Source of the DNA: Thermoanaerobaculia bacterium
GTDB lineage: Bacteria > Acidobacteriota > Thermoanaerobaculia > Thermoanaerobaculales > Sulfomarinibacteraceae
Length of the DNA stretch: 64,000 bases
Direction: 5' to 3'
NCBI GenBank assembly: GCA_027061805.1
Contig: JAMOWA010000045.1
Location: 49,317 to 113,316, forward strand
This document shows positions 17,332 through 35,415 of the stretch, piece by piece; positions within the stretch are counted from its first letter, which is position 1, and each line of letters begins with the position of its first letter. Below the pieces are notes generated by a model. It ran no database searches and was not told the origin of the DNA. It saw nothing but the letters and a program-made list of their open reading frames with translations. A program made the position numbers and the translations under genes.

Positions 17332-17443
17332 CGCCCCGGTGTATGCTGGAGCGCGAGGTCGGGAGGTTGACCATGGACCGATGGCACCTGGTTTGCGGGC
17401 GGGCGAGACCGTCGGACGGACGGCGTCCGGAGCGGGTGGCCTG

Positions 17444-18637: not shown

Positions 18638-18757
18638 GACCGGCGGTGTTCCCCGCCCGGGCCGGGGAACGTGGATCGTTCCGGCTGGAGGTGGTGCCCG
18701 GGACCGGCCTGGCACGGCGTTTGCTCATGTTCCCGACGTTGCTGGGAGGAGGCGGCC

Positions 18758-19579
18758 ATGGCGATCATCACCATCTCGAGAGGAACCCTGAGTGGGGGGG
18801 CCCGCCTGGCCGGGTGTCTCGGGCACGGCCTGGGGTACGCGGTGATCAGCCGCGAGGACCTGGTGGAGCACGCCTCGAGGTGGTACGGCGTCGAGGAGGA
18901 GAACCTGCTCCGCGGCCTCGAGCGGGGTCCGGCGCTGCTCGAGCGTTTCCGGATCGACCGCCAGATCTACCTGGCCGTGGCCCGGGCGACACTGTGCCGC
19001 CTGGTACGACGTGACAACGTGGTCTACCACGGGCATGCCGGGCACCTGCTGCTGGATGGCGTGCCCCACGTGCTTCGGCTCAGGATCATCGCGCCGTTCG
19101 GGAGCAGGGTGCGCGAGGCCATGAGGGAGCGGGGACTCAGCGAGGGCGAGGCGGAGGTCTTCATCCGGCGGCAGGACGAGGAAAGGATCTCCTGGACCCG
19201 CTTCCTCTATGGCGTGGACTGGGGCGATCCGGTGCTCTACGACCTGACGGCCAACCTCGAGAAGCTGACCGTGGAGGCCATCTGCAACCTGACGGCCGCC
19301 CTGGTGGAGCGGCCGGAGCTCACCACGACGCCCGAGGGCCTCCAGCGCCTGGACGATGTCTTCCTTGCAGCCCACGTCCACGCCAGGCTCTACCTCAACC
19401 CGAAGATCGCGGCAGCGGCGGGGAAGATCAGGGTCTCCGCCGACGCGGGGACGGTGCACCTGTCGGGCATCCTGCCAGGAGAGGCGCTCCTCGAGGAGGT
19501 GCTCGACACCTGCCGGGGCCTGCCGGAGGTGCAGCGGGTCGAGTCCGACTGGCTGGCGGGATCCATCCAGCCCACCTGA
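18758..19579 (+). CDS. cytidylate-kinase-like (AAA) family protein with C-terminal BON domain
   Basis: Start at MAIITISRGTLSGGARLA, a P-loop-like N-terminus of the Cytidylate_kin2 type. The C-terminus (KIRVSADAGTVHLSGILPGEALLEEVLDTCRGLPEVQRVESD) resembles a BON domain. Confidence 0.65.
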   Translation: MAIITISRGTLSGGARLAGCLGHGLGYAVISREDLVEHASRWYGVEEENLLRGLERGPALLERFRIDRQIYLAVARATLCRLVRRDNVVYHGHAGHLLLDGVPHVLRLRIIAPFGSRVREAMRERGLSEGEAEVFIRRQDEERISWTRFLYGVDWGDPVLYDLTANLEKLTVEAICNLTAALVERPELTTTPEGLQRLDDVFLAAHVHARLYLNPKIAAAAGKIRVSADAGTVHLSGILPGEALLEEVLDTCRGLPEVQRVESDWLAGSIQPT

Positions 19580-20158: not shown

Positions 20159-20293
20159 GGCAAGCCAGAACCCGCAGGACACCGGATTCACAGCTTGTGC
20201 CGCAGGCATTCTACCATCCGGCAGGGTGCCATCTCCTGATGCCGTGGTGAGCCAGAGACCACAACCCGGTTCGGACCGGAACAGGAGGTGTGC

Positions 20294-20731
20294 ATGCCAA
20301 GTTTTGTCAATCCGGAAAAGTGTGACGGGTGCAAGGCCCTCGACTCCACGGCCTGCCAGCACATCTGTCCCAACGATCTCATGGTGCTCGACAAGGAGAC
20401 CATGAAGGCCTACAACCGTGAGCCCGAGATGTGCTGGGAGTGCTACAACTGCGTCAAGATCTGCCCGACCCAGGCGGTGGACGTCCGCGGGTACGCCGAC
20501 TTCGTGCCCATGGGTGCCTCGGTGGTTCCCATGCGCTCCACCGACGCCATCATGTGGACGGTCAGGTTCCGCAACGGGAACGTCAAGCGCTTCAAGTTCC
20601 CCATCCGCACCACCCCCGAGGGGCAGGCGGAGCCGGCCGGCGGCTGGCCCACCGAGCCCGACCTGGACAGCCCGGTCCTGTTCACGGAGCCGGATTCCCT
20701 CGGGCTGCCCGCGGTGTGGACCCGGAACTAG
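20294..20731 (+). CDS. aprB: adenylylsulfate (APS) reductase beta subunit
   Basis: MPSFVNPEKCDGCKALDSTACQHICPNDLMVLD and CWECYNCVKICPTQA give the two ferredoxin-type clusters and the AprB-specific N-terminus. AGGAGG lies 5 nt upstream of the ATG. Confidence 0.95.
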   Translation: MPSFVNPEKCDGCKALDSTACQHICPNDLMVLDKETMKAYNREPEMCWECYNCVKICPTQAVDVRGYADFVPMGASVVPMRSTDAIMWTVRFRNGNVKRFKFPIRTTPEGQAEPAGGWPTEPDLDSPVLFTEPDSLGLPAVWTRN

Positions 20732-20745
20732 GGAAGGAGGCGAAG

Positions 20746-22656
20746 ATGCGGGACATCAAGACCGTCGTCGTCGACACCGACCTGCTCATCCTGGGCGGTG
20801 GCATGGCCGCGTGCGGCGCGGCCGTGGAGGCCGCCCACTGGGCCAAGAAGAACGGGCTGAAGGTGACCATGGTGGACAAGGCGGCCGTGGACCGTTCGGG
20901 CGCCGTGGCCATGGGGCTTTCCGCCATCAACCAGTACGTGGGCCTGAGGGACGGCCAGAATACCGTCAAGGACTACGTGGACTACGTCCGAAACGACCTC
21001 ATGGGTGTCACCCGCGAGGATCTCGTGGCCAACATCGCCCGGCACGTGGACTCCACGGTCCACCTGTTCGAGAAGTGGGGCCTTCCCATCTGGAAGGACG
21101 AGAACGGGAACTACGTGCACGAGGGCCGCTGGCAGCTCATGATCAACGGCGAGTCGTACAAGGTCGTCGTCGCGGAAGCAGCGAAGAACGCCATCGGCGC
21201 CGACAACATCCACGAACGCATCTTCATCGTGGGACCGCTCGTGGACGGCGACCGCTGCGTGGGCGCCTACGGGTTCTCCGTGCGCGAGGACGTCTTCTAC
21301 GTCTTCCGATCCAAGGCCACCCTGGTGGCCATGGGTGGTGCGGTGCACGTGTTCAAGCCGCGCTCCTCCGGGGAGGGGCAGGGCCGCGCGTGGTACCCGC
21401 CATGGAACGCCGGCGCCTCCACCTACTTCACCCTGAAGGCCGGTGCGGAGATGACCTGCCAGGAGGTCCGGTTCATCCCCGTGCGGTTCAAGGACGCCTA
21501 CGGGCCCGTGGGCGCCTGGTTCCTGCTGTTCAAGTCCAGGGCCACCAACGCCTTCGGCGGCGAGTACATGCAGGAGCGCCGTGACGAGCTGACCAACTGG
21601 GTGCCCTACGGCCACGTGAAGCCCATGCCGGCCAACCTCCGGAACTACCTGATGCTGCTCGACGTGATGGAGGGCAAGGGCCCCATCTACATGCGGACCG
21701 AGGAGGCCATCGGGAAGCTGGCCGAGCAGTACAAGGACGACCCCAAGGCCTACAAGAAGAAGATGAAGGAGCTCGAGTCGGAGGCCTGGGAGGACTTCCT
21801 GGACATGACGATCTCCCAGGCGATCCTCTGGGCGGCCACCAACACCGCCCCCGAGGAGAAGCCCTCGGAGATCGCGGCCGCCGAGCCCTACTTCATCGGC
21901 TCCCACTCGGGTGCCTCGGGCGCGTGGGTCAGCGGCCCGGAGGACCTGGCACCCGCCGAGTACTTCTGGGGCTACGAGAACATGTCCACCGTCAAGGGAC
22001 TCTTCTGCGCAGGCGATGCGTCGGGCGCGTCGTCCCACAAGTTCTCCTCCGGTTCCCATGCCGAGGGGAGGATCGCGGGCAAGGCCGCCGTGAAATACAT
22101 CGTCAGGGAGAACCCCACCCTTCCCACCCTGAGCGACGAGACCGTCGAGGCGCTCAAGGAGGAGGTGTACAGGCCGCTCGCCAACTTCGAGGCGAACAGG
22201 ACCGGCACCACCCAGCCGGACGTGAACCCCAACTACATCCGGCCCAAGATGTTCATGATGCGCCTGCAGAAGATCATGGACGAGTACGCCGGCGGTGTGA
22301 GCGCCCAGTTCACCACCTCCAGGCCCATGCTGGAGCGGGGCCTGGAGCTCCTCGGCTTCCTCAAGGAGGATTCCGAGAAGCTCGGCGCAGAGGACCTCCA
22401 CGAGCTCATGCGGTGCTGGGAGAACGTGCACCGCATGTACCAGGCGGAGGCCCACGTGCGTTCGGTCCTCTTCCGGGAGGAGACGCGGTGGCCCGGGTAC
22501 TACTTCCGGGCGGACTTCCCCAACCTGGACGAGGCGAACTGGCACTGCTTCGTCAACTGCAAGCTCGACCCCGTGACGGGCGAGTGGCAGATGATGAAGC
22601 GCCCGATCCTCCACGTGTTTGCGCCGGCCAGCGATCACGAGCTGGTGGGCGGATGA
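20746..22656 (+). CDS. aprA: adenylylsulfate (APS) reductase alpha subunit (FAD flavoprotein)
   Basis: FAD fingerprint DLLILGGGMAACGAAVEA, then GLSAINQYVG, RWQLMINGESYK and a long fumarate-reductase-like fold. GGAAGGAGG lies upstream of the ATG at 20746. Confidence 0.95.
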   Translation: MRDIKTVVVDTDLLILGGGMAACGAAVEAAHWAKKNGLKVTMVDKAAVDRSGAVAMGLSAINQYVGLRDGQNTVKDYVDYVRNDLMGVTREDLVANIARHVDSTVHLFEKWGLPIWKDENGNYVHEGRWQLMINGESYKVVVAEAAKNAIGADNIHERIFIVGPLVDGDRCVGAYGFSVREDVFYVFRSKATLVAMGGAVHVFKPRSSGEGQGRAWYPPWNAGASTYFTLKAGAEMTCQEVRFIPVRFKDAYGPVGAWFLLFKSRATNAFGGEYMQERRDELTNWVPYGHVKPMPANLRNYLMLLDVMEGKGPIYMRTEEAIGKLAEQYKDDPKAYKKKMKELESEAWEDFLDMTISQAILWAATNTAPEEKPSEIAAAEPYFIGSHSGASGAWVSGPEDLAPAEYFWGYENMSTVKGLFCAGDASGASSHKFSSGSHAEGRIAGKAAVKYIVRENPTLPTLSDETVEALKEEVYRPLANFEANRTGTTQPDVNPNYIRPKMFMMRLQKIMDEYAGGVSAQFTTSRPMLERGLELLGFLKEDSEKLGAEDLHELMRCWENVHRMYQAEAHVRSVLFREETRWPGYYFRADFPNLDEANWHCFVNCKLDPVTGEWQMMKRPILHVFAPASDHELVGG

Positions 22657-22723: not shown

Positions 22724-23035
22724 ATGGCCGATCTCACGTGTCCCCACTGCCGATCCCGGCTGCTTCCGTTCGAGCTTCCGGAGGCGGCGGGCTGGAGCGC
22801 TCCGTTCCACCTCGCCTGCTTCAACGACGACTGCAGCTACTACCGGCGGGCCTGGGAGTGGATGAAGGGACGTTACGGGGTGTGGGCGGCCTACCGGTTC
22901 CGCCTCGACCCCGCCAGCGGAACCGCGTCGCCCCTTCCCGTCTGGTCCCCCGACGCCCTCAAGGACAGGATCCTCGACGCCGAGGTGGAGGTCCACTCCG
23001 GGACCGGGAGCGAGATGGCGGGGGGGCTCCGGTGA
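22724..23035 (+). CDS. small Zn-ribbon-like protein (103 aa), unknown function
   Basis: MADLTCPHCRSRL ... HLACFNDDCSYYRRAWEW gives CxxC plus Cx5C. It sits in the operon, and its stop overlaps the next gene's GTG start (GTGA). The Trp/Tyr-rich composition is unlike GC-artefact ORFs. Confidence 0.6.
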   Translation: MADLTCPHCRSRLLPFELPEAAGWSAPFHLACFNDDCSYYRRAWEWMKGRYGVWAAYRFRLDPASGTASPLPVWSPDALKDRILDAEVEVHSGTGSEMAGGLR

Positions 23036-23835
23036 ACGGCGCCACGGTGGAGGAGCCCGAGCTCCTCAGGGACCACCGCAGGCTGGCACCGGGGGAGACG
23101 TTCCGGTTTTCCTGCCACCCCGGACTCGAGTGCTTCGGCGCCTGCTGTGCCGACGTCAACATCGTCCTGACCCCCCTGGACGTCCTGGGGCTTGCCCGCC
23201 GCCTGGGGGTCAACACCACGGTCTTCCTGGCCCGGTACACGGCGACGCTGGAGAGCCCGGAGCTCGGGCTCCCTGTGGTGACCCTCAGGATGGGGGACGA
23301 CGAACGGAGGTCGTGCCCCTTCGTCGGACCGGGCGGTTGCGGCGTGTACGAGGACAGACCGTGGGCCTGCCGCATGTACCCGGTCGGGATGGCGCTGCCG
23401 CCTGCCCGGGCGGGTGAGACCCCCGAGCCCAGGTACTTCCTCTTCGAGGATGCCTGGTGCGAGGGGTGTGGCCAGGGCCGGGCCTGGACCGTGGACGGGT
23501 GGCGGGAGGACCAGGGCATCCCGGTGCGGGAGGAGATCGAGAGGGGATTCCGGGCGCTGGTGTCCCATCCGTGGTTCATCGGGGGACGCAGGCTCGATCC
23601 GAAGCGTGCCGCGATGTTCTTCACGGCGTGCTACGACCTGGACCGGTTCCGGGCCTTCATCTTCGAGTCGTCGTTCCGGGACCGCTTCGTGCTGGACCAC
23701 GTGCTGGAGGAGCGCCTGGCCCACGACGATCTGGAGCTGCTCCGTTTCGCCTTCCGGTGGCTCCGTTTCGCCGTCTTCGGTGAGCGCACCCTCACCGTCC
23801 GGCCGCACCGGCCAGGAGGAGGGAGGAAGCCATGA
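23032..23835 (+). CDS. YkgJ/UPF0153-type cysteine-cluster (putative Fe-S or Zn) protein
   Basis: SCHPGLECFGACCADVNIVLTPLDV (Cx5Cx3CC) and CPFVGPGGCGVYEDRPWACRMYP are the two hallmark Cys clusters of the family. The stop overlaps the qmoA ATG (ATGA). Confidence 0.75.
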   Translation: MNGATVEEPELLRDHRRLAPGETFRFSCHPGLECFGACCADVNIVLTPLDVLGLARRLGVNTTVFLARYTATLESPELGLPVVTLRMGDDERRSCPFVGPGGCGVYEDRPWACRMYPVGMALPPARAGETPEPRYFLFEDAWCEGCGQGRAWTVDGWREDQGIPVREEIERGFRALVSHPWFIGGRRLDPKRAAMFFTACYDLDRFRAFIFESSFRDRFVLDHVLEERLAHDDLELLRFAFRWLRFAVFGERTLTVRPHRPGGGRKP

Positions 23836-25079
23836 ACGACACTTCGAACAGGCCGATCCTGGTTCTCGGCGCGGGTATCGCGGGCCTGACCGCCGCCCTG
23901 GAGGCGGCAGAGACGGGCCGGTTCGTGGTGCTGGTGGAGAAGAACCCGTGGGTGGGAGGCAGGGTGGCCGCCTTCCACCAGTACTTCCCGAAGCTCTGTC
24001 CCCCATCGTGCGGCCTCGAGATCAACATCCGGCGCCTGGAACGGAACCCCCGGATCCGTCTGCTGACGGGAACGCGCCTTGCGGGGGCCGAGAGGATCGA
24101 GGGCGGCTGGAGGGTGATCCTCACCAGGGCCCCCCGGTGGGTCACCGACCGGTGCACCGCCTGCGGCGAGTGCACGGCGGCATGCCCCGTGGAGATCCCG
24201 AACCCCTTCGACCAGGGCATGGGGACCGTGAAGGCCATCCACCGGCCCCACGCCCAGTCCTGGCCGGAGCGCTTCGTGATGGAGAGGGATGCCTGCCGCC
24301 AGGGCTGCCACGCCTGCGCGGACGCCTGCGAGTACGGCGCCATCGACCTGGCCGCCGAGGCCACCACGGAGGAGCTGGAGGTGGGGAGCGTGGTGGTGGC
24401 CACGGGCTGGGAGCCCTACCCTCTGGAGAAGCTCCCGGAGCTGGGTGGTGGGGTTCTCCCCGACGTGATCTCCAACGTCCAGATGGAGCGGCTGGCGCAC
24501 CCCGGCGGCCCCACCGGAGGCAGGATCCTGCGCCCCTCCGACGGGGCCCCGCCGCGGCGGGTGGCCTTCGTCCAGTGTGCCGGCTCCCGCGACGTGAACC
24601 ACCTGGCCTACTGCTCCGGGGTGTGCTGCCTGGCCTCATTGAAGGAGGCCCTGTACGTCAGGGAGCAGCTGCCCGGGGCGGAGATCGCCATCTACTACAT
24701 CGATCGCCGCACTCCCGGCCGGAACGAGGACTTTCTCGAGAAGGTGGCGGGGACGGAGGGCATCCGGCTGGTCAAGGGGAAGGTGGGCAAGGTCCTGGCG
24801 GCGGACGGCGGCCTCGAGCTCGTGGTGGAGGACGTGGAGGCCGGCCGCCGCCTGCACGAGAGGGCGGATCTCGTGGTGCTGGCCACGGGCATGGTGCCGT
24901 CGGCGGGGGATCTGCCCCTTCCGGTGGAGCTGGACGAGGACGGGTTCGTCCTGGACGACCCGGCCTCCGGCGTGGTCCCCGCGGGTGTGGTGCACCGGCC
25001 CCAGGAGGTGGCCTCGGTGGTGCGGGACGCCACGGGGGCGAGCGCCCGTGCCATGGCCATGGCAGGAGGGAGGGCGTGA
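23832..25079 (+). CDS. qmoA: Qmo complex subunit A (HdrA-like flavoprotein)
   Basis: FAD fingerprint ILVLGAGIAGLTAALEAAETG, plus the ferredoxin motifs CTACGECTAACP and CRQGCHACADAC. The cluster position directly after aprBA is conserved. Confidence 0.9.
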   Translation: MNDTSNRPILVLGAGIAGLTAALEAAETGRFVVLVEKNPWVGGRVAAFHQYFPKLCPPSCGLEINIRRLERNPRIRLLTGTRLAGAERIEGGWRVILTRAPRWVTDRCTACGECTAACPVEIPNPFDQGMGTVKAIHRPHAQSWPERFVMERDACRQGCHACADACEYGAIDLAAEATTEELEVGSVVVATGWEPYPLEKLPELGGGVLPDVISNVQMERLAHPGGPTGGRILRPSDGAPPRRVAFVQCAGSRDVNHLAYCSGVCCLASLKEALYVREQLPGAEIAIYYIDRRTPGRNEDFLEKVAGTEGIRLVKGKVGKVLAADGGLELVVEDVEAGRRLHERADLVVLATGMVPSAGDLPLPVELDEDGFVLDDPASGVVPAGVVHRPQEVASVVRDATGASARAMAMAGGRA

Positions 25080-27331
25080 TGGAACGGATCGGAGTTGTCC
25101 TCTGCTCGGGCTGTGACATCGGGAAGGCCGTCGACCTGGAGGCCGTGGGGGGTGTGGCCGGGGAGGAGGGGGCGGCGTGGGTGGTCTCGCATCACGCGCT
25201 CTGCGAGCCCGAGGGCCTCGAGACCGTTCGCCGGAGGCTCGAGGAGGATGCCGTCGACGGGCTCCTCCTGGGCGCCTGCTCGCAACGGTGCCGCGCCGAC
25301 GTGCTGTGCGACGCCTGCCTGGGCGTGCCGGTGGAGAGGGCGGCCCTCCGGGAGCACGTGGCCTGGTCCCATGCGCCGCTGGACGAGGACACCCAGGCCC
25401 TCGCCGAGGACCTGGTGCGCATGGGCCTCGCCCGGGCGGCCACGGTGAGACCCCCGGAGGTCCTGGACGAGCCGGTGGAGGACACCGTGCTCGTGGTGGG
25501 CGGGGGGCTCGCCGGGATGCAGGCCGCGCTCGCCGCGTCGGCCCTGGGAAAGCCGGTGGTCCTGGTGGAGGCCCGGGAGGCCCTGGGCGGGTTCCTCCGG
25601 GAGGTTCCGGGCCTGCCGCCCCACAGGCCCCCGTGGGACGTGCCGGTTCCCAACACGGTGGGTGACGTGGTCCGGCAGGTCCTGGACGACCCCCGGATCC
25701 GGGTGATCACCGGCGCGAATCTCGAGAGGATCTCCGGCCAGCCAGGCCAGTTCGAGGTGCATGTCGGGACCGGGGATGGCTCGGAGACCTTCCGGGCGGG
25801 TGCCATCGTCCAGGCCACCGGTGCCGAACCTTACGATGTCTCCCGGCTGGAGGCGCTGAATCCTGACCGCTCGCCGGACGTGATCGGATCCGTGGAGCTC
25901 GATGCCATGCTGGCCTCTGGCGAGCTCCGGCGGCCGTCGGATGGAGCCACACCGAGGAGGGTGGTCTTCGTCCAGTGCGCCGGTTCCCGCGACCCCGACC
26001 ACCTTCCCTACTGCTCTTCCGAGTGCTGCGCCACCACGCTGCGCCAGGCCGCGCGCCTCCGGCAGGACTTCCCCGAGGTGGAGCCCGTGGTGCTCTACCG
26101 GGACCTCCGGACGCCGGGAACCCTGGAGCACCTCTACCAGGCGGTGCAGGAGGAGGGCGGGACCCTGTTCCTCAGGGGCGAGGTGGAGGCCGTGCACGCC
26201 AACGGCAACGGTTCCCTCCAGGTGGGGCTGGCCGAGAGCCTGCTGGGCGACGGCGTGGCCGTCCCGGCGGACCTGGTGGTCCTGGCCGTGGGCATGGTGC
26301 CGCACTCCGCGGACGGCGAGGCCATCCGGATGCTCAACGATGCCCGCGAGCGTGCGGAGCACGGCGAGTCGGAGACCCAGCGTGCCGAGGCCCGCGAGCT
26401 CGTGGAGAATCTGGCCTCCCACGAGGGGACGGAGATCCTCCATCTCACCTACCGGCAGGGGCCGGATCTCCCGGTGCTCCAGTACGGCTTCCCGGACTCC
26501 CACTACATCTGCTTCCCCTACGAGACCCGCCGCACCGGCATCTACGCCGCGGGAACCGTGAGGGCGCCCATGGGCCCGGCCGAGGCGGCCGAGGACGCCT
26601 GGGGCGCCGCGCTGAAGGCGGTACAGTGCATCGAGGCCGCACGGCGGGGCGAGGCCGTCCACCCGCGGTCGGGCGACCTCGGTGTTCCGGACTTCTTCCT
26701 CCAGAGGTGCACCCAGTGCAAGCGGTGCACCGAGGAGTGCCCCTTCGGCACCCTGGACGAGGACGAGAAGGGAACCCCCATGCTCAACCCCCTGCGGTGC
26801 CGCCACTGCGGCATCTGCATGGGCGCCTGCCCGGAGCGGATCGTGTCGTTCCCCGACTACTCGGTGGACGGGATCGCCTCCATGATCAAGGCGGTGGAGG
26901 TTCCCGACGAGGACGAGGAGAAGCCGCGCATCCTGGCACTCCTGTGCGAGAACGACGCCCTGCCCGCGCTGGACACCGCGGCGGCGCTCCGTACGGGCTG
27001 GAACCCCTGGGTACGGGTGGTTCCCGTGCGGTGCCTCGGATCGGTCAACATCGTGTGGATCGCCGACGCGCTCTCCCGCGGCTTCGACGGGGTCATCCTC
27101 ATCGGCTGCAGGTACGGCGACGACACCCAGTGCCACTACGTCCGCGGCTCCGAGCTGGCCAACCGGCGCCTGGAGAACGTCCAGGAGACCCTGGAGCGCC
27201 TCTCCCTGGAGCCCGAGCGCATCCGGCTCGTGGAGCTGGCCCACAACGAGTTCCACCGCATCCCCGAGCTCCTCGACGAGTTCGCCGGGGAGATCGAGGA
27301 GATGGACCCCAACCCCTACAAGGGTTTCTAG
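25079..27331 (+). CDS. qmoB: Qmo complex subunit B (HdrA-like, with C-terminal MvhD-like domain)
   Basis: The ATG at 25079 overlaps the qmoA stop. MERIGVVLCSGCDIG, FAD site VLVVGGGLAGMQAALAA, CTQCKRCTEECPFG, CRHCGICMGACPE, and an MvhD-like tail ILALLCENDALPALD ... VRCLGSVN ... ILIGCRYGDDTQCHY. Confidence 0.9.
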   Translation: MERIGVVLCSGCDIGKAVDLEAVGGVAGEEGAAWVVSHHALCEPEGLETVRRRLEEDAVDGLLLGACSQRCRADVLCDACLGVPVERAALREHVAWSHAPLDEDTQALAEDLVRMGLARAATVRPPEVLDEPVEDTVLVVGGGLAGMQAALAASALGKPVVLVEAREALGGFLREVPGLPPHRPPWDVPVPNTVGDVVRQVLDDPRIRVITGANLERISGQPGQFEVHVGTGDGSETFRAGAIVQATGAEPYDVSRLEALNPDRSPDVIGSVELDAMLASGELRRPSDGATPRRVVFVQCAGSRDPDHLPYCSSECCATTLRQAARLRQDFPEVEPVVLYRDLRTPGTLEHLYQAVQEEGGTLFLRGEVEAVHANGNGSLQVGLAESLLGDGVAVPADLVVLAVGMVPHSADGEAIRMLNDARERAEHGESETQRAEARELVENLASHEGTEILHLTYRQGPDLPVLQYGFPDSHYICFPYETRRTGIYAAGTVRAPMGPAEAAEDAWGAALKAVQCIEAARRGEAVHPRSGDLGVPDFFLQRCTQCKRCTEECPFGTLDEDEKGTPMLNPLRCRHCGICMGACPERIVSFPDYSVDGIASMIKAVEVPDEDEEKPRILALLCENDALPALDTAAALRTGWNPWVRVVPVRCLGSVNIVWIADALSRGFDGVILIGCRYGDDTQCHYVRGSELANRRLENVQETLERLSLEPERIRLVELAHNEFHRIPELLDEFAGEIEEMDPNPYKGF

Positions 27332-27343
27332 GGAGGCTGCGCC

Positions 27344-28477
27344 ATGGCTACGGTACCGCTCATCGCCCCGTCGGAGGAGCTCCGGGAGGAGCTCCGTGCC
27401 CGTGGAGGCACCTCCGCGGCCCGGTGCTTCCAGTGCGCCACCTGCTCCGCCGTGTGCGACCTCGCCCCGGACGGCCGGCCGTTCCCGAGGCGGGAGATGC
27501 TCATGGCGCAGTGGGGCCTGGCCGACCAGCTCATGGCCGACCCCGCCGTCTGGCTCTGCCACCAGTGCAACGACTGCACGGCCCGCTGTCCCCGCGACGC
27601 CCGCCCTGGCGACGTCCTGCAGGTCGTGCGGTCCCTGGTGATCGAGCGGCTGGCCTTCCCCCGGTCCCTGGGACGGTTCGTGGCCAACGTGAGGACCACC
27701 TGGCCGGTGCTGCTCGGGGCGCCGCTCCTGCTCTGGGTCCTGCTGCTGGGGCTCACCGGTCACCTGGGGGTCCCGGCCCACCTGGTCTCGTGGGAGGAGG
27801 TGGTCCCCCACTGGATGATCTACAGCGTGTTCTTCCCCGTCACCCTCCTGGTGATGGCGGCGGCAGGGGTGAGCGCCCGGAGGTTCTGGGTGCTGCTGGG
27901 CTCCACCGGGCCTCCCCGGAAGGGGAGCCTCCCGGTCGCCCTGGGGGCGGTGGCCGCGGAGCTCGTGACCCACAGGAGGTTCGGGTGCTGCGAGACCGCG
28001 AGGCCACGGCGATGGGGCCACCTGGCCCTGGTCTGGGGGTTTGTGGGGGCCGCCGTCACCTCGGGGCTGCTCATCGTGGCCCTCTACGGGTTCCACATGG
28101 AGCTGCCGCTCCCCCTCACCCACCCCTTCAAGATCCTGGGGAACCTCTCGGCCGTGGCGCTGCTCGTGGGCACGGCGATCCTCGTGGTGGAACGCCTCAA
28201 GGATCCGGACCGGGTGGGCCGCACCACGGCCTTCGACACGTTCTTCCTGGTGGTGGTGGCCCTGGTGGTCCTCACGGGGACCCTCGTGGAGGTGGCCCGG
28301 CTGACGCTGCCGGCTGCCGTGGGACTGCCGATGTACGTGGTCCACCTCTCGCTGGTGCTGACCCTCTTTGCCACGTTCCCCTATTCCAAGTTCGCCCACA
28401 TGCTCTACCGGACCCTCGCGCTGGCCCACGAGCGGATGACCCGGGAGAACGACCAGCCACCGGATCCCACGGATTGA
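27344..28477 (+). CDS. qmoC: Qmo complex subunit C (HdrC-like Fe-S domain fused to HdrE/NarI-like membrane domain)
   Basis: CFQCATCSAVCD and CHQCNDCTARCP motifs are followed by about 6 hydrophobic helices with conserved His residues. Confidence 0.9.
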   Translation: MATVPLIAPSEELREELRARGGTSAARCFQCATCSAVCDLAPDGRPFPRREMLMAQWGLADQLMADPAVWLCHQCNDCTARCPRDARPGDVLQVVRSLVIERLAFPRSLGRFVANVRTTWPVLLGAPLLLWVLLLGLTGHLGVPAHLVSWEEVVPHWMIYSVFFPVTLLVMAAAGVSARRFWVLLGSTGPPRKGSLPVALGAVAAELVTHRRFGCCETARPRRWGHLALVWGFVGAAVTSGLLIVALYGFHMELPLPLTHPFKILGNLSAVALLVGTAILVVERLKDPDRVGRTTAFDTFFLVVVALVVLTGTLVEVARLTLPAAVGLPMYVVHLSLVLTLFATFPYSKFAHMLYRTLALAHERMTRENDQPPDPTD

Positions 28478-28501: not shown

Positions 28502-30442
28502 ATGCCCGGCAGAAACGTGCTCCACCTGGGACTGGTGGCCGTGCTGGCGGCCTCCCCGATGGTGGCCGGTGAGCCGCCACCACTGGCCCCGGGTCACCGA
28601 GACCTGGAATGCCGGGCCTGCCATCCCGGGCAGGACCGGACGGCGGGCTGCACCGATGGCGGGTGCCACCGGGACGTGGCGAAGGTCTTCCTCTCCTCGG
28701 AGCACGACAGGCGGCACGTGGACCCGGCCCGGCTTCCGTGCACGGCGTGCCACGGCTCCCACCCCGTGGTGGGTGGCCATGCGGCGAGCGCCCTGGCGTG
28801 CACCAACCGGGCCGATCGCCCGTGCCTGCCCTGCCATGAGGCGACCCGGTACCGGGTGGGCAGGCGGATCGCACCACCTGCCGTGGTGGACGAGCCGGGG
28901 GCCAGCGTCCACGCCGCCGCACGGCAGGCCCTGGGGTGCTCCGAGGCCACGGTGAGCTGCTTCACCTGCCACGGTTCCCACACCATCCTTCCCCCGGCCG
29001 ATCCCGAAAGCCCGGTGAACAGGTTCCGGGTGAATCGGACGTGCGGCTCGTGCCACGAGCGGGAGCTCGAGGCGTTCGCCGTGAGCATCCACGCCAGGGG
29101 CCTCGAGCGTGGCGACCGGGTGTCGCCCACCTGCGTGTCGTGCCATGGCTCCCACGGGGTCCTGGCCGCCACGGGGCTGCGGGCGCCCACGGCGGCTCCC
29201 AAGGTTGTCTTCACCTGCGCCGAGTGCCACGAGGACCCCGCGGTACTCCGCGAGACCCTGCTCCCACTGGAGGCGGTGGACACCTACGAGGAGTCGCTCC
29301 ACGGCATCGCCTACCGGCACGGGATCCACGACGTGGCCAACTGTGCCACCTGCCACGGGTTCCACGATGTATTTCCCGCCGCGGATCCCCGCTCCCCCGT
29401 GAACCCGGCCAACATCCGGGGGCTCTGCCTCGACTGCCACGAACGGGTCACCCCGGAGATGATCGAGGCGGTGCGGCATCCGAAGGGGCGCCCCGGCCTC
29501 CGCGGGATCCTGGAGCGGATCACCGTGTACTTCCCCATCGCGGGAACCTCGGTGAACCCGCTGCTGGTCTCCGGGATGGGGGCGCTGGTGGGCTTCCTCT
29601 CCGGGATCTTCGGGGTGGGAGGCGGCTTCCTCATGACGCCGCTTCTCATCTTCATCGGCATCCCGGCCGCGGTGGCCGCGGCCACGGACGCGGCGCAGAT
29701 CACGGCCGGCGCCAGCTCCGGGGCCATCTCCCACGCCCGGCTGGGCAATGTGGACTTCAAGATGGGCCTGGCCATGGTGGCGGGGAGCTGGCCGGGGGGA
29801 TGGGTGGGCGTCCAGGTGGTCCATGCCCTCCGTGCCATGGGCAACTTCGACTTCTTCCTCAAGGTACTCTACGTGCTGCTGCTGGGCTTCACCGGCATCA
29901 CCATGCTGGTGGAGGGGGCACGGACCCTCCGCGGGAGGTCGCCCTCCGCCGAGCCCGGCCCCGGGCGTCTCGGCCGGGCCTTCGAACGGCTGCCACTGGT
30001 CATGAGCTTCCCCAAGTCACGGCTCAGGATCTCCGTGCTGGTCCCCATGGCAGCGGGCTTCATCGTGGGCATCCTGGCGGCCCTGCTCGGTGTGGGGGGC
30101 GGGTTCATCCTCATGCCCATGATGATCTACATCATCGGGATCCCCACGCTGGTGGCCGTGGGGACCGGGCTCTTCCAGATCGTGCTGACCTGTGCCTGGG
30201 TGACCCTCCAGCAGTCGCTGACCAACCACACGGTGGACGTGCTCCTGGCCATCGCCCTCTTCGCGGGCTCGGTGATCGGTGCCCAGTTCGGGGTGCTGGC
30301 CAGCCGGCGGCTCAAGGGAGAGCAGATCCGGGTGCTGCTGGCGATCATCGTCCTGGCGGTGATGGGCATGCTTCTCTACCAGCTGGTGACACCTCCCGAC
30401 CTGCTCATCCAGTTCGCCAGGTCCGGCGGAGGCCATCGATGA
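28502..30442 (+). CDS. multihaem cytochrome c (9 CxxCH + 1 Cx4CH) fused to a TSUP/TauE-SafE-type anion permease
   Basis: Single 646-aa frame. The signal/anchor is VLHLGLVAVLAASPMVAG. Haem motifs are CRACH, CTDGGCH, CTACH, CLPCH, CFTCH, CGSCH, CVSCH, CAECH, CATCH and CLDCH. From about residue 350 there is a 4+4 TM duplicated domain with two GVGGGF signatures (FGVGGGFLMTPLL and LGVGGGFILMPMM). Confidence 0.85.
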   Translation: MPGRNVLHLGLVAVLAASPMVAGEPPPLAPGHRDLECRACHPGQDRTAGCTDGGCHRDVAKVFLSSEHDRRHVDPARLPCTACHGSHPVVGGHAASALACTNRADRPCLPCHEATRYRVGRRIAPPAVVDEPGASVHAAARQALGCSEATVSCFTCHGSHTILPPADPESPVNRFRVNRTCGSCHERELEAFAVSIHARGLERGDRVSPTCVSCHGSHGVLAATGLRAPTAAPKVVFTCAECHEDPAVLRETLLPLEAVDTYEESLHGIAYRHGIHDVANCATCHGFHDVFPAADPRSPVNPANIRGLCLDCHERVTPEMIEAVRHPKGRPGLRGILERITVYFPIAGTSVNPLLVSGMGALVGFLSGIFGVGGGFLMTPLLIFIGIPAAVAAATDAAQITAGASSGAISHARLGNVDFKMGLAMVAGSWPGGWVGVQVVHALRAMGNFDFFLKVLYVLLLGFTGITMLVEGARTLRGRSPSAEPGPGRLGRAFERLPLVMSFPKSRLRISVLVPMAAGFIVGILAALLGVGGGFILMPMMIYIIGIPTLVAVGTGLFQIVLTCAWVTLQQSLTNHTVDVLLAIALFAGSVIGAQFGVLASRRLKGEQIRVLLAIIVLAVMGMLLYQLVTPPDLLIQFARSGGGHR

Positions 30443-31263
30443 CCGCCCGTGGCCCCCGGGCCCTCCTCGTGCTGCTGGTCCTGGTGGTGCTGACCGCTGG
30501 AGCCGCCACGGCCCAGAACGGCGGCGAGCGGCTGCAGGTGGATGTTCGCCGCGTCCGGGTCTCCCTGGGCTTCTCCGGCCAGAAGGTGTTCATCTTCGGC
30601 CATGTGCCCGAGGGGACCCGGCGGGTGGTGACGGTGATCGAGGCTCCCGGAAGGGGCCCGGTGCGCCTCATGGAGAAGGGACGGGTGGGCCCGTTCTGGC
30701 TGGGCGTCCGGCAGTACGCCGTGTCGGGGCTGCCCGGCCTCTACCTGGTGGAGCTCAGCTGCCCCGGGGGGAACGTCCTCAGGGAGTGCCCGGAGGAGGA
30801 CCCCCTCGGTGCGGCCAACCGTGAGCTTGCAGCCGTGGGGGTCATGGTGGGCCCGGAGGCGATCGTCTCGCGGGCCAGCGTGGAGGTGCTCCAGGGCGGG
30901 GGCGGCGCACGGGACCTGGAGCGGCTCCTGGACGGCCTGTGGGAGCTGGAGTCCTCCCTCGGCCTGTGGGGTGTGGACCCCAACAGGATCCGCCTCAACG
31001 ACGAGGGCATGTACTACTTCGAGGCCCGCCTGCCGGCCCACGCTCCCGAGGGCAAGTACACCATCACGAGCTGGTTCCTGGGCCTGCCTGCCGGACCACG
31101 GTCCGCGAGCTCCGAGCTCTTCGTGCGCCGATGGGGCCTGGTGGCGTGGCTCTCCCGGCTCGCGGCCCGCCATCCCTGGATCTATGCGTTGATCACCGTC
31201 GGGATCGCCCTGGCGGCCGGCTGGCTGGCCGGCGCCGTGTTCCGGCGGAGGACCGATCACTGA
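30439..31263 (+). CDS. periplasmic protein with signal peptide and C-terminal TM anchor, TIGR02186/Alph_Pro_TM-like
   Basis: The ATG overlaps the preceding stop (ATGA). [26 protein letters not shown] is the signal peptide, and the C-terminal helix is [25 protein letters not shown]. The size and the habit of sitting next to a TauE-like gene fit that family. The family call is from memory only. Confidence 0.6.
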
Positions 31264-31289: not shown

Positions 31290-32561
31290 ATGAGCCGACT
31301 GGTACCGCCCCACGGATCCGAGACACTGAAACCGTTGCTGCTGGAGGGAGCAGAGCGCGAGGAGGAGATGGTCCGCGCCCGGACCCTGAAGCAGGTGCCC
31401 ATGACGAGTCGGGAGACCTCCGACCTCATCATGATGGGCATCGGTGCCTTCACCCCCCTCGAGGGCTTCATGGGCCACGACGACTGGAAGAGCGTCTGTG
31501 AGCATTTCACCATGCCGTCCATGGACGGGCTCTTCTGGCCCATCCCCATCACGGTGTCGGCGGCACGGGACCTTGCCGACTCCATCGCCATCGGCGAGGA
31601 CGTCGCACTGGTGGATGGCGAGTCCGGCACGCTGATGGGGACCATGAAGGTCACCGAGAAATACCGCATCGACCGGGAGCTCGAGTGCCGCCACGTGTTC
31701 GGCACCACCGACCTCGAGCATCCCGGCGTCCAGAAGGTCATGGCCCAGGAGGAGCTCAACCTGGCGGGCCCGGTGAAGGTGGTCTCCGAGTCCTTCTTCC
31801 CGGAGATGTTCGGGTCGCTCTACCAGCGCCCGGCCGAGGCCCGAGCCATCTTCGACGAGCGCGGATGGAGCACGGTGGCCGCGCTCCAGCTCAGGAACCC
31901 CATGCACAATTCGCACGCCTACCTGGCCAAGGTGGCCATCGAGGTCTGCGACGGGGTCTACATCCACCAGCTCCTGGGCAAGCTCAAGCCCGGGGACATC
32001 CCTGCCGAGGTGCGGGTCCGGTGCATCGACGCCCTGGTGAAGAACTACTTCCGCGAGGAGCGTGTGGTCCAGGGCGGCTACCCCATGGAGATGCGCTACG
32101 CGGGACCCAGGGAGGCCCTGCTCCACGCTGTGTTCCGCCAGAACTACGGATGCAGCCACCTCATCGTGGGACGTGACCATGCCGGGGTGGGAGACTACTA
32201 CGGCCCCTTCGACGCCCACCGGATCTTCGACGAGATCCCCCACGGTTCTCTCCGGCTCCAGCCCCTGAAGATGGACTGGACCTTCTACTGCTACGACTGC
32301 GGCGAGATGGCCTCCATGAAGACATGCCCCCACGAGAGCAAGGCCACCATCGACGAGCAGGGCAACCACGTGTCCGGATCCCGGCTGCTCCTGTCGGGCA
32401 CCATGCTCCGGAAGATGCTCTCCGAGGGCAAGCCGGTGCCGAAGGAGTTCTCCAAGCCCGAGGTGGTGGCCATCCTCCGGGAGTACTACGCCAGCCTGGA
32501 GGAGAAGGTGGAGATCAAGCTGCACGGCGCCGCCACGGGTGACGCGGCGGGCAAGGACTGA
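31290..32561 (+). CDS. sat: sulfate adenylyltransferase (ATP sulfurylase), dissimilatory-type length
   Basis: [30 protein letters not shown], and an N-terminal PUA-like region. AGGAGG lies upstream of the ATG at 31290. Confidence 0.95.
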
Positions 32562-35075: not shown

Positions 35076-35415
35076 ATCCCAGACACGGGGACCGTGGCGG
35101 GAAGCGGGTGCGGCGAACGGGGGCGGGTAACGGCGGCGGGGATCGGGATCGGCGACGGAGAGCAGCGACCGGGTCCGGTGATCTTCCCGGGCTGGCCCCG
35201 GTTCCATCCGGCCACTGAGGCGTATCCGGTCGAGGTCATCACCCCCCCCCGCCCCTGCCTCCCTGTGCCCCCGCTTTCCCGGGTGGACGGGGGGCGTCCT
35301 GACGCTTCACTCTCTTCACCAGGCGCCCTGAGGCCAGGCCTTCGTGACGGAATGCCCCGGAAGTGGCCGCCTTCCCCTGCTTCCCTGACACGGGACGCGC
35401 TACAATGAAGTGCAC

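What the first reader, a model, noticed from the sequence alone, without database searches (positions are those of the whole stretch)
28502..31263. Multihaem cytochrome c covalently fused to a TauE/SafE (TSUP) anion permease, plus a TIGR02186-like partner, wedged between qmoC and sat
Seen directly: ORF 28502-30442 is one uninterrupted 646-aa frame.
- It starts with a signal/anchor helix.
- About 300 aa follow with nine canonical CxxCH motifs (CRACH, CTACH, CLPCH, CFTCH, CGSCH, CVSCH, CAECH, CATCH, CLDCH, several as CxxCHGSH) and one CTDGGCH (Cx4CH).
- A duplicated 4+4-helix membrane domain follows, with two GVGGGF signatures typical of TSUP/TauE-SafE permeases.
- Its stop overlaps (ATGA) a 274-aa gene encoding a signal peptide plus a single C-terminal TM. 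This resembles the family I recall as a habitual neighbour of TauE-like genes.
- Both genes are inside the aprBA-qmoABC-sat transcription unit.
Established: TSUP members (TauE, SafE) are implicated in export of sulfite and sulfo-organic anions. Apr/Sat interconvert sulfite, APS and sulfate in the cytoplasm, so a dedicated sulfur-oxyanion transporter in this operon makes sense.
Inference: I do not know a described architecture in which such a permease carries a roughly decahaem periplasmic domain. It suggests that oxyanion translocation is physically coupled to periplasmic electron transfer. Possibilities include periplasmic sulfite or thiosulfate handling, or an electron entry/exit route feeding the Qmo/quinone pool. 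This is my best candidate for an undescribed module.
Basis: partly seen in the sequence, partly recalled or inferred. Interest (0 to 1): 0.8.

Follow-up and report, generated by a model that had tools for sequence, protein, structure and literature searches.

The report
Multihaem cytochrome fused to TSUP permease
One real, widely conserved gene joins a ten-haem periplasmic electron wire to a sulfur-anion-type membrane permease; it sits with a fixed partner protein inside the sulfate-respiration operon and probably links the Qmo complex to the periplasm, an arrangement I found described nowhere.

Summary
**Observation: confirmed in every detail.**
- ORF 28502-30442 encodes a signal peptide, then 9 CxxCH plus 1 Cx4CH haem sites, then an 8-helix TauE/TSUP domain (PF01925, E = 2.5e-43).
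- Its stop overlaps (ATGA) the start of a PF09608 gene.
- Both genes lie between qmoC and sat.

**It is not an assembly artefact.** More than 100 protein clusters from independent assemblies carry the same fusion, in a 10-haem form and a 6-haem form. Named sources are Acidobacteriota/Thermoanaerobaculia and one Armatimonadetes MAG. The PF09608 gene follows in every locus that reaches past the fusion's 3' end.

**Link to sulfate respiration.**
- 12 of 16 informative fusion loci adjoin qmoC/apr/sat, against about 3 of 77 loci of haem-less orthologues (p about 1e-9).
- In Chloroflexota the same TSUP subfamily is fused to QmoC itself through one extra helix. There the PF09608 partner carries a conserved CxxCH.
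- The haem domain is collinear with the periplasmic domain of CbcL-type bc-cytochromes, with TSUP in place of the cytochrome b domain.

**Best reading (inferred).** This is a Qmo-associated accessory module. An all-bis-His haem wire gives QmoC a periplasmic electron entry or exit route. The TSUP/PF09608 pair moves sulfate or sulfite. Substrate, direction and physical coupling are untested.

**Novelty.** No paper describing this architecture was found.

The parts
18671..19579 (+). Cytidylate-kinase-like + BON protein, upstream of aprB. It is a recurrent neighbour of TSUP/PF09608 modules.
   Evidence: PF13189 E = 9e-30 and BON. The same family occurs in L001, L169, L168, L002 and L006, and an ORF downstream of the L042 pair resembles it by eye.
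20288..20731 (+). aprB (APS reductase beta subunit)
   Evidence: ORF. Homologous genes at 77-89% identity carry the APS-reductase_C Pfam domain in L001, L004 and L007.
20746..22656 (+). aprA (APS reductase alpha subunit)
   Evidence: ORF. 78-87% identical to aprA of L001, L004 and L007.
22724..23035 (+). Small Zn-ribbon-like conserved gene between aprA and qmoA. The start coordinate is approximate.
   Evidence: Weak PF04606 match, 25.6 bits. Syntenic 102-105-aa genes occur in L001, L003, L004, L007, L088, L169 and L170.
23032..23835 (+). CxxCxxCC (PF03692) protein, conserved between aprA and qmoA. The start coordinate is approximate.
   Evidence: PF03692 E = 8.8e-7. Syntenic in all apr-qmo fusion loci that reach this far upstream.
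23832..25079 (+). qmoA
   Evidence: ORF. 52-67% identical to qmoA of related loci.
25079..27331 (+). qmoB
   Evidence: 750-aa frame starting at MERIGVV. Homologues carry the FlpD and Fer4 domains.
27344..28477 (+). qmoC: HdrC-like FeS domain plus a six-helix cytochrome b membrane domain
   Evidence: NF038018 qmoC, 386.6 bits against a cut-off of 300.
28502..28570 (+). Signal peptide of the fusion protein (residues 1-23)
   Evidence: Sequence. AF2 helix at residues 4-16.
28571..28936 (+). N-terminal four-haem extension (residues 24-145: CRACH, CTDGGCH, CTACH, CLPCH). Present only in the long form.
   Evidence: Alignments A1 and A2. 100% conserved in 42 long-form sequences and absent from 24 short-form sequences.
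28937..29491 (+). Core six-haem domain (residues 146-330), shared by long and short forms. Homologous to the periplasmic domain of CbcL-type bc-cytochromes.
   Evidence: Invariant Cys/His. Residues 29-313 are 38% identical to P0133, E = 3e-51. 2844 relatives in the representative library.
29492..29557 (+). Linker plus beta-hairpin motif (VYFPIAGTSVN) that begins the TSUP subfamily
   Evidence: AF2 strands at 342-344 and 349-351. The same motif starts haem-less orthologues.
29558..30388 (+). TSUP/TauE domain: eight transmembrane helices as a 4+4 repeat, with two GVGGGF motifs
   Evidence: PF01925 E = 2.5e-43. AF2 helices 353-384 through 606-629. 73-78% identical among acidobacterial fusions.
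30389..30442 (+). Conserved C-terminal helix and Gly-rich tail ending in His (…FARSGGGHR), plus the stop codon
   Evidence: Alignments A1 and A2.
30439..31263 (+). PF09608 partner: signal peptide, two periplasmic beta-sandwiches, one C-terminal transmembrane helix, cytoplasmic …GGGH-type tail. Translationally coupled to the fusion gene (ATGA).
   Evidence: PF09608 E = 1.4e-35. AF2 pLDDT 91.9. ATGA overlap. Present directly downstream in every fusion locus that extends that far.
31296..32561 (+). sat (sulfate adenylyltransferase)
   Evidence: NF003166, 487 bits against a cut-off of 387.

Best explanation
The two genes encode an accessory membrane module of the Qmo/APS-reductase system.

**Shown**
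- The first protein is exported and stays anchored by its own C-terminal TSUP domain, whose N-terminus faces the periplasm.
- It carries ten c-type haem sites. Each has a conserved candidate second histidine ligand, which is the signature of an electron wire rather than a catalytic site.
- The haem domain is homologous to the periplasmic domain of CbcL-type inner-membrane bc-cytochromes, but the cytochrome b half has been replaced by TSUP.
- The TSUP domain is the better conserved half. It always comes with a PF09608 protein whose bulk is periplasmic.

**Inferred**
- The TSUP/PF09608 pair docks on QmoC, the dihaem-b subunit encoded by the preceding gene.
- The haem wire exchanges electrons between periplasmic carriers and the outer b haem of QmoC. 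This gives AprBA a transmembrane electron route that does not depend only on menaquinol. It would be analogous to DsrJ in DsrMKJOP or to the cytochrome subunits of Tmc/Hmc. The route could run in either the reductive or the oxidative direction.
- The TSUP/PF09608 pair keeps a transport role, most likely import of sulfate, or export of sulfate or sulfite, for Sat/Apr.
For: **Architecture and topology**
- Architecture confirmed.
- Ten haem sites plus ten further conserved His residues (32, 68, 87, 137, 160, 197, 218, 267, 288, 326).

**Homology of the haem domain**
- The nearest non-TSUP relatives are multihaem proteins with a C-terminal PF01292 cytochrome b domain.
- The collinear alignment to one of them, P0133, covers residues 29-313 at 38% identity, E = 3e-51.
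- CbcL has this architecture, and its nine haems are all bis-His (PMC9129911).

**Genomic association**
- 12 of 16 informative fusion loci adjoin qmoC/apr/sat.
- About 3 of 77 haem-less orthologue loci do so; Fisher p = 1.7e-9.
- Gaps are tight: 24 nt after qmoC, then an ATGA overlap with the partner gene.

**Fusion evidence from a second phylum**
- Six independent clusters of single-ORF QmoC-TSUP fusions exist (768-797 aa, Fer4 plus TauE domains). One extra helix joins the two halves.
- They lie in sat-aprBA or hppA loci.
- Their PF09608 partners carry a conserved CxxCH (KYVPCxSCHR) in all three loci examined.
- So periplasmic c-haem was added to this module in two different ways in Qmo-linked lineages.

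**TSUP is not a degenerate anchor**
- It is 73-78% identical among acidobacterial fusions, against 42-55% for the haem domain.
- It shares its subfamily motifs with haem-less orthologues.

**Literature consistent with a sulfur-anion transport role**
- TSUP family members, and a conserved TSUP clade found in 25 of 44 sulfate reducers (PMC5840216).
- A TauE protein and its 'co-occurring transmembrane protein' are more abundant during thiosulfate disproportionation (PMC13490349).
Against: - Four fusion loci (L002, L006, L089, L171) are not next to qmo/apr. Two of these have an H+-pyrophosphatase gene directly after the partner gene. No b-type cytochrome partner is visible there.
- The haem-less TSUP/PF09608 pair is widespread in Alphaproteobacteria, Nitrospirota, Planctomycetota and other groups. 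Its usual neighbours are PPDK_N/PEP-utiliser proteins, Usp and receiver domains. Its base function is therefore not specific to sulfate reduction, and its substrate is unknown.
- No complex model or contact prediction between QmoC and the module was possible.
- Bis-His ligation is inferred from conservation only. Two extra conserved Cys residues (C100 in 86%, C146 in 90% of long forms) leave His/Cys ligation open.
- The Arg-rich central loop (residues 477-512) is predicted to be periplasmic, which runs against the positive-inside rule.
- No expression or biochemical data exist for any member.
Confidence: 0.5

Rival explanations
1. Redox-gated transporter. The TSUP/PF09608 pair is the functional core, a sulfate or sulfite permease. 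The haem domain only senses the periplasmic redox state and opens or closes the permease. No net electron flow to Qmo occurs.
For: - The TSUP half is the more conserved half.
- Fusions also occur away from qmoC, in loci rich in histidine kinases, receiver domains and PPDK_N-type proteins.
- Haem-less modules sit in regulatory neighbourhoods.
Against: - Six to ten bis-His haems homologous to the CbcL wire are far more than the one or two haems I recall in known c-haem sensor domains (from memory, not checked here).
- The strong enrichment next to qmoC and the covalent QmoC-TSUP fusions are not explained by gating alone.
Confidence: 0.15
2. Periplasmic sulfur-compound oxidoreductase coupled to export. 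Sulfite, thiosulfate or polysulfide moved by TSUP is oxidised or reduced at one of the haems.
For: - Operon with sat/apr.
- Two conserved non-motif cysteines, C100 and C146, in long forms could provide a His/Cys-ligated haem as in DsrJ or TsdA.
- An Arg-rich periplasmic loop could bind anions.
Against: - Every haem site has a conserved candidate distal His.
- No CxxCK, Cx15CH or other catalytic motif is present.
- No NCBIfam hit to any sulfur-haem enzyme was found; only weak NrfB-like matches.
- Short forms lack the first three of the four extension haems and C100, and do not conserve C146, yet keep the same contexts.
Confidence: 0.1
3. The TSUP domain is merely a membrane anchor for a periplasmic cytochrome that serves general or extracellular electron transfer. 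The operon position is incidental.
For: - Homology to CbcL-type and weakly to MtrA-type wire cytochromes.
- Related Acidobacteriota encode metal-respiration cytochromes (PMC8528874).
Against: - A single helix would suffice as an anchor.
- The TSUP half is highly constrained and always keeps its PF09608 partner.
- The same TSUP subfamily is fused to QmoC without any multihaem domain.
- The operon enrichment has p about 1e-9.
Confidence: 0.1
4. Assembly or annotation artefact: two ordinary genes joined by a frameshift.
For: None found.
Against: - More than 100 clusters from NCBI, JGI, ENA and Logan assemblies carry the same single ORF with a conserved junction.
- The AF2 model is confident across the junction.
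Confidence: 0.01

Closest known systems
CbcL-type inner-membrane bc-cytochromes (Geobacter sulfurreducens CbcL; PMC9129911)
   Same: - A periplasmic multihaem c domain, all bis-His, covalently fused to an integral membrane domain at its C-terminus.
- The haem domains are homologous and collinear: 38% identity to the CbcL-type protein P0133, E = 3e-51.
   Different: - The membrane half here is an 8-helix TSUP permease, not a six-helix dihaem cytochrome b. No quinol site or b haems are present in cis.
- The only nearby cytochrome b is QmoC, encoded by the preceding gene.
TauE/SafE/TsaS-type TSUP permeases (PF01925; TC 2.A.102)
   Same: - Pfam match far above threshold.
- 4+4 helix repeat with the Gly-rich motif in helices 1 and 5.
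- Genomic association with sulfur-oxyanion metabolism.
   Different: - It carries a roughly 330-residue periplasmic decahaem domain.
- It belongs to a distinct subfamily defined by an obligate PF09608 partner, an N-terminal YxPIAxxSVN hairpin, a long Arg-rich central loop and a GGGH tail.
- No member of this subfamily has been characterised.
Periplasm-facing cytochrome subunits of sulfate-reducer membrane complexes (DsrJ of DsrMKJOP, TmcA, HmcA, QrcA)
   Same: The proposed role is the same: c-type haems on the periplasmic side pass electrons to a NarI/HdrE-like cytochrome b that feeds a cytoplasmic sulfur reductase.
   Different: - No sequence family match to these proteins.
- The partner complex would be Qmo, for which I know of no described periplasmic cytochrome subunit.
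- The cytochrome is fused to a permease.
MamO of magnetotactic bacteria (PMC4794232)
   Same: A precedent for an extracytoplasmic N-terminal domain fused to a C-terminal TauE-like domain. Both halves are functionally required. From memory, magnetochrome c-haem proteins belong to the same system; this was not checked here.
   Different: - The N-terminal domain of MamO is a degenerate trypsin-like protease, not a cytochrome.
- The process (magnetite biomineralisation) is unrelated.
- I know of no PF09608 partner for MamO (not checked here).
QmoC-TSUP fusions of Chloroflexota (found here; P0333-P0339)
   Same: - The same TSUP subfamily and the same PF09608 partner directly downstream.
- The same sat/apr/hppA neighbourhood.
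- Periplasmic c-haem is present.
   Different: - TSUP is fused to QmoC through one extra helix instead of to a multihaem domain.
- The haem is a single CxxCH in the partner protein.

Membership tests
TSUP / TauE-SafE (PF01925) | Profile match above the Pfam gathering score | tested here: met
   148.9 bits against a cut-off of 32.6, residues 358-621, HMM positions 3-234 of 237.
TSUP / TauE-SafE (PF01925) | Eight transmembrane helices arising from a 4+4 duplication, with a Gly-rich motif in helices 1 and 5 | tested here: met
   AF2 helices 353-384, 389-413, 419-445, 449-476, 513-545, 549-575, 580-601 and 606-629. GVGGGF at 371 and 530.
TSUP / TauE-SafE (PF01925) | Transport of sulfite, sulfonate or sulfate anions | not testable with these tools
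   Only context is available: the sat/apr/qmo operon and the literature.
Multihaem cytochrome c (class III / c7 / paired-CXXCH types) | Multiple CxxCH sites in a Sec-exported domain | tested here: met
   9 CxxCH plus 1 Cx4CH, all invariant in 42 homologues. PF14522, PF14537 and PF09699 score above their cut-offs. A signal peptide is present.
Multihaem cytochrome c (class III / c7 / paired-CXXCH types) | Bis-His axial ligation of every haem (electron-transfer type) | tested here: inconclusive
   Ten conserved non-motif His residues for ten haems. Ligation cannot be proven from sequence. C100 and C146 are also conserved.
CbcL-type bc-cytochrome | Homologous periplasmic multihaem domain | tested here: met
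   E = 3e-51, 38% identity over residues 29-313 to P0133. Several top hits carry PF01292.
CbcL-type bc-cytochrome | Fused dihaem cytochrome b (HydC/FdnI-like) membrane domain | tested here: not met
   The membrane half is PF01925. There is no PF01292 match.
TIGR02186 / PF09608 (partner gene) | PF09608 profile match above the gathering score | tested here: met
   123.5 bits against a cut-off of 24.5, residues 36-270.
TIGR02186 / PF09608 (partner gene) | NCBIfam TIGR02186 equivalog cut-off | tested here: not met
   43.8 bits against a cut-off of 255.25. Only the C-terminal 106 residues match.
Known cytochrome subunits of sulfate-reducer complexes (DsrJ, HmcA, TmcA, QrcA) | Sequence family membership | tested here: not met
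   The NCBIfam scan returned only weak NrfB-like hits (about 20 bits) for the fusion protein.
QmoABC complex (as an extra subunit) | Encoded in the qmo operon and co-inherited with qmoC | tested here: met
   12 of 16 fusion loci adjoin qmoC/apr/sat. QmoC-TSUP fusions exist.
QmoABC complex (as an extra subunit) | Physical presence in the purified complex | not testable with these tools
   Requires biochemistry.

The most novel reading that the evidence does not exclude
The module is a new kind of energy-coupling device. Electron flow through the haem wire and QmoC would be mechanistically coupled to anion or ion movement through TSUP/PF09608, in one Qmo-TSUP supercomplex. Sulfate entry (or sulfate/sulfite exit) and APS reduction (or sulfite oxidation) would then be linked stoichiometrically. 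This would supply the missing driving force for the thermodynamically awkward menaquinol-to-APS step.
Probability: 0.15. Interest if true: 0.9.

Novelty: new variant of a known kind. Interest (0 to 1): 0.72.

Why it matters
Two questions in dissimilatory sulfur metabolism remain open:
- How does the Qmo complex obtain electrons of low enough potential to reduce APS?
- Which proteins carry sulfate in, or sulfate and sulfite out?

Here a permease of the sulfur-anion family and a CbcL-like haem wire are encoded as one protein directly after qmoC. In a second phylum the same permease is fused to QmoC itself.

If the module belongs to Qmo, these widespread uncultured sulfur-cycling Acidobacteriota and Chloroflexota use a transmembrane route to APS reductase that is absent from the Desulfovibrio model. 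It would also give a first functional handle on the uncharacterised TSUP/PF09608 pair, which occurs across many phyla.

Tried and rejected
- **Solved structures.** A profile search of PDB sequences found only weak multihaem matches (MtrA 6r2q_A, GSU1996 3ov0) and no TSUP structure. Foldseek of the fusion model gave nothing at E ≤ 0.001; the best hit was BacA with TM-score about 0.45. Foldseek of the partner model gave only generic Ig/arrestin-like beta-sandwiches.
- **Metagenome scan with haem-core patterns.** It returned mostly unrelated multihaem cytochromes. Only 5 of 80 loci were fusions.
- **Taxonomy from clusters.** The listing of cluster members returned no organism names.
- **Literature on the partner family.** Searches for PF09608, TIGR02186 and Alph_Pro_TM found nothing. 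The Hausmann 2018 supplements did not identify its 'genes 1-4'.
- **A bis-His site in TSUP.** I considered that H411 and H576 could form a haem b or metal site. I dropped this because position 576 is Gln or Arg in alphaproteobacterial and Chloroflexota orthologues.
- **SoxB.** I checked whether the 5'-nucleotidase-like gene upstream is SoxB. It is not: 122 bits against a cut-off of 550.
- **Length class versus context.** I considered that only the long form sits in apr-qmo operons. This is wrong: short forms also occur in qmo operons (L004, L087, L088, L090).


Full report
**1. Observation**

The finding is accurate.
- ORF 28502-30442 (+) is a single 646-aa frame. It begins 24 nt after the qmoC stop and is preceded by a purine-rich ribosome-binding-like sequence.
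- Its stop overlaps the start of the next gene in an ATGA.
- The protein has an N-terminal signal-peptide-like segment, nine CxxCH motifs and one Cx4CH motif within residues 37-313, and a C-terminal TauE/TSUP domain. The TSUP match is PF01925, residues 358-621, E = 2.5e-43, 148.9 bits against a cut-off of 32.6.
- Cytochrome_C7, Cytochrom_c3_2 and Paired_CXXCH all score above their gathering thresholds.
- The next gene (30439-31263, 274 aa) is a clear PF09608 member (123.5 bits). It falls far below the TIGR02186 equivalog cut-off (43.8 against 255 bits).
- The gene order is: a cytidylate-kinase-like/BON gene, aprB, aprA, a small Zn-ribbon-like gene, a CxxCxxCC gene, qmoA, qmoB, qmoC (NF038018, 386.6 bits), the fusion, PF09608, sat (NF003166, 487 bits).
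- The terminator scan finds no more sites than shuffled sequence gives.

**2. Not an artefact, and how widespread**

- A search of 5.8 billion proteins found 1235 relatives. More than 100 clusters at 90% identity carry both PF01925 and multihaem Pfam hits. They come from NCBI, JGI, ENA and Logan assemblies.
- Where named, the sources are Acidobacteriota, Thermoanaerobaculaceae, or one Armatimonadetes MAG.
- There are two length classes.
  - The long form (about 645 aa) has ten haem sites. All 30 Cys/His positions are 100% conserved in 42 sequences.
  - The short form (about 540 aa) lacks the first three of the four extension haem sites and C100. It keeps the fourth extension site plus five core sites (six in all) or the six core sites.
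- The junction with TSUP is conserved.

**3. Anatomy**

- AlphaFold2 on an 82-sequence alignment gave pLDDT 85.5 and pTM 0.74.
- The model shows a mostly loop-and-short-helix haem domain, as expected for multihaem proteins. Two short beta-hairpins (342-351 and 500-511) each precede a four-helix bundle, giving eight transmembrane helices in total. A short C-terminal helix follows.
- Besides the ten proximal histidines, ten more are conserved: positions 32, 68, 87, 137, 160, 197, 218, 267, 288 and 326. Every haem can therefore be bis-His ligated. No catalytic-type motif (CxxCK, Cx15CH) is present.
- Two extra cysteines (C100 in 86%, C146 in 90% of long forms) are unexplained.
- The haem domain must be periplasmic, because c-type haem is attached there. 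This puts the TSUP N-terminus, the Arg-rich central loop and the C-terminal tail outside the cytoplasm.
- The partner protein (AF2 pLDDT 91.9) has a signal helix, two beta-sandwiches and one C-terminal transmembrane helix followed by RRRTDH. Its bulk is periplasmic.
- In locus L171 a PF09608 protein continues into a cytoplasmic PPDK_N/PEP-utiliser kinase (1138 aa). This confirms that the partner's C-terminus is cytoplasmic.

**4. Relatives of the haem domain**

- An exhaustive HMMER search with residues 1-345 found 2844 relatives.
- Apart from the fusions themselves, six of the ten top-ranked hits I scanned against Pfam are multihaem cytochromes with a C-terminal cytochrome b561/Ni_hydr_CYTB domain (PF01292).
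- Residues 29-313 align collinearly with one of them, P0133, at 38% identity, E = 3e-51.
- This is the architecture of Geobacter CbcL: a six-helix dihaem b domain linked to a nine-haem periplasmic domain whose haems are all bis-His (PMC9129911).
- The fusion therefore looks like a CbcL-type protein whose membrane half was swapped for a TSUP permease. The only cytochrome b nearby is QmoC, encoded by the preceding gene.

**5. Genomic association**

I recovered 17 independent fusion loci, counting the window.
- Twelve adjoin qmoC, apr or sat: the window, L001, L003, L004, L007, L009, L087, L088, L090, L091, L169 and L170.
- Four do not: L002, L006, L089 and L171. In L002 and L171 an H+-pyrophosphatase gene follows the partner gene directly.
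- One, L008, is too short to judge.
- L169 continues sat-dsrM-dsrK…dsrAB, with no dsrJOP in the sequence retrieved.
- L170 has two tandem cytochrome-TSUP genes before the partner gene.

For comparison, I examined the 77 best haem-less orthologues of the TSUP half. They are about 50% identical and come from Desulfobacterota, Nitrospirota, Alphaproteobacteria, Planctomycetota and other groups.
- A PF09608 gene follows directly in about 50 of the 77 loci by low-identity tblastn (46 by ORF criteria).
- Only about three of the 77 lie near apr or qmo (Fisher p = 1.7e-9).
- Their usual downstream genes are PPDK_N/PEP-utiliser proteins (21), Usp (21) and receiver domains (18) out of 122 ORFs scanned.

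**6. A second, independent link to QmoC**

- In the Chloroflexota locus L082 (sat-aprBA-qmoABC-TSUP-PF09608), the qmoC frame runs on through one extra hydrophobic helix and into the TSUP N-terminal motif. It then changes frame at a C/T homopolymer.
They are 768-797 aa, 57-65% identical over 99-100% of the query, and carry Fer4 plus TauE Pfam domains.
- They lie in sat-DUF6955-aprBA-[qmoC-TSUP]-PF09608 (L167) and hppA-[qmoC-TSUP]-PF09608 (L168).
- QmoC appears to have six transmembrane helices (my reading of the sequence plus recalled literature) after a cytoplasmic N-terminal domain. The single added helix would therefore place the TSUP N-terminus outside, the same topology the haem fusion requires.
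- All three Chloroflexota partner proteins examined carry a conserved CxxCH (KYVPCxSCHR) in their periplasmic part.
- The same module has therefore gained periplasmic c-haem in two different ways in Qmo-linked lineages.

**7. Interpretation**

Shown:
- A real, conserved fusion of a periplasmic multihaem wire and a TSUP domain.
- An obligate PF09608 partner.
- A strong association with qmoC/apr/sat.
- Fusion evidence from Chloroflexota that this TSUP subfamily works beside QmoC.

Inferred:
- The haem wire exchanges electrons with the outer b haem of QmoC. This would give AprBA a periplasmic electron entry or exit route, analogous in role to DsrJ, TmcA or HmcA.
- TSUP/PF09608 retains a transport role, probably for sulfate or sulfite.

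The transport inference rests on three points:
- Family-level knowledge of TSUP proteins and a conserved TSUP clade in sulfate reducers (PMC5840216).
- Higher abundance of a TauE protein and its co-occurring transmembrane protein during thiosulfate disproportionation (PMC13490349).
- The TSUP half being more conserved than the haem half: 73-78% against 42-55% identity.

Against the interpretation:
- A quarter of fusion loci are not beside qmo.
- The haem-less pair occurs in many organisms that do not respire sulfur.
- No interface, substrate or direction has been tested.

**8. Comparison with known systems and novelty**

- The protein is a TSUP member by every sequence criterion. It is a relative of the CbcL c-domain but fails the defining cytochrome b feature of that family. 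It matches no known cytochrome subunit family of sulfate-reducer complexes.
- MamO, a protease-TauE fusion, is a precedent for an extracytoplasmic domain fused N-terminally to TauE (PMC4794232).
- No paper in the searchable library describes a cytochrome-TSUP fusion, a QmoC-TSUP fusion, or any function for PF09608.
- Hausmann 2018 shows unnamed conserved syntenic genes in acidobacterial sulfur-gene loci.
- I class this as a new variant of a known kind: a periplasm-facing cytochrome module of a sulfur-respiration membrane complex. There is a smaller chance that it is a truly new electron-coupled transporter.

Noticed in passing
L082:8652-10945; also P0333-P0336, P0338, P0339; L167:9001-11334; L168:6080-8401: QmoC is covalently fused, through one extra transmembrane helix, to the same TSUP subfamily in a Chloroflexota lineage. 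In L167 the fusion follows aprBA directly, with no qmoA or qmoB in the locus.
   Followed up: yes
L082:9985-10000: In this MAG the qmoC-TSUP reading frame is broken by a one-base shift at a CCCTTTT homopolymer. Intact homologues elsewhere suggest a sequencing error or a recent pseudogene.
   Followed up: partly
L082:10945-11790; L167:11334-12188; L168:8401-9255: The PF09608 partners of the QmoC-TSUP fusions each carry one conserved haem c motif (KYVPCxSCHR). The acidobacterial partners lack it.
   Followed up: partly
window 30425-30439 and 31243-31260: Both the fusion protein (…SGGGH[R]) and its partner end in a conserved Gly-rich tail with a His at or next to the C-terminus (…GGGH in most partners; RRRTDH here). 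By topology one tail is periplasmic and the other cytoplasmic. Haem-less orthologues in Desulfobacterota and Chloroflexota keep the motif. The purpose is unknown.
   Followed up: partly
L171:6358-9774: A PF09608 protein is fused to a PPDK_N + PEP-utilisers kinase (1138 aa). Separate PPDK_N/PEP-utiliser, Usp and receiver genes are the commonest downstream neighbours of haem-less TSUP/PF09608 pairs (21, 21 and 18 of 122 ORFs). This suggests a phosphotransfer link of unknown meaning.
   Followed up: partly
L170:8043-11941: Two tandem cytochrome-TSUP fusion genes (653 and 646 aa) precede a single PF09608 gene. Tandem haem-less TSUP paralogues occur in L042, L062 and L080. This may indicate heterodimers.
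   Followed up: no
window 22724-23835: Two small genes sit between aprA and qmoA: a roughly 103-aa Zn-ribbon-like protein and a roughly 267-aa PF03692 CxxCxxCC protein. They are conserved in the apr-qmo loci of Acidobacteriota and the Armatimonadetes MAG that reach this far upstream.
   Followed up: partly
window 18671-19579: A cytidylate-kinase-like (PF13189) + BON protein lies directly upstream of aprB. The same family recurs next to TSUP/PF09608 modules in L001, L002, L006, L168 and L169, and an ORF downstream of the L042 pair resembles it by eye. It could be an AMP- or NMP-handling enzyme tied to APS turnover.
   Followed up: no
L169:14160-21217: Downstream of sat the locus continues with dsrM-like and dsrK-like genes and then dsrAB. 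No dsrJOP is present in the stretch retrieved. A PF03601 (YeiH-type) membrane protein lies between them.
   Followed up: no
window 15598-17502 (-): A 633-aa Metallophos + 5'-nucleotidase C-terminal domain protein is transcribed divergently from the operon region. It is not SoxB (122 bits against a cut-off of 550). It resembles periplasmic 2',3'-cyclic phosphodiesterase/nucleotidases.
   Followed up: yes
window 32715-34412 (-) and 35410-36996 (+): Convergent with sat is an unusually long (564 aa) class-V aminotransferase/cysteine-desulfurase-like gene. Beyond it lies an FHA-GAF-adenylate/guanylate cyclase gene.
   Followed up: no
window 29930-30037 (residues 477-512 of the fusion): The central loop between the two TSUP repeats carries about nine Arg/Lys residues but is predicted to be periplasmic, contrary to the positive-inside rule. 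It could be an anion-attracting vestibule, or a sign that the topology model is incomplete.
   Followed up: no
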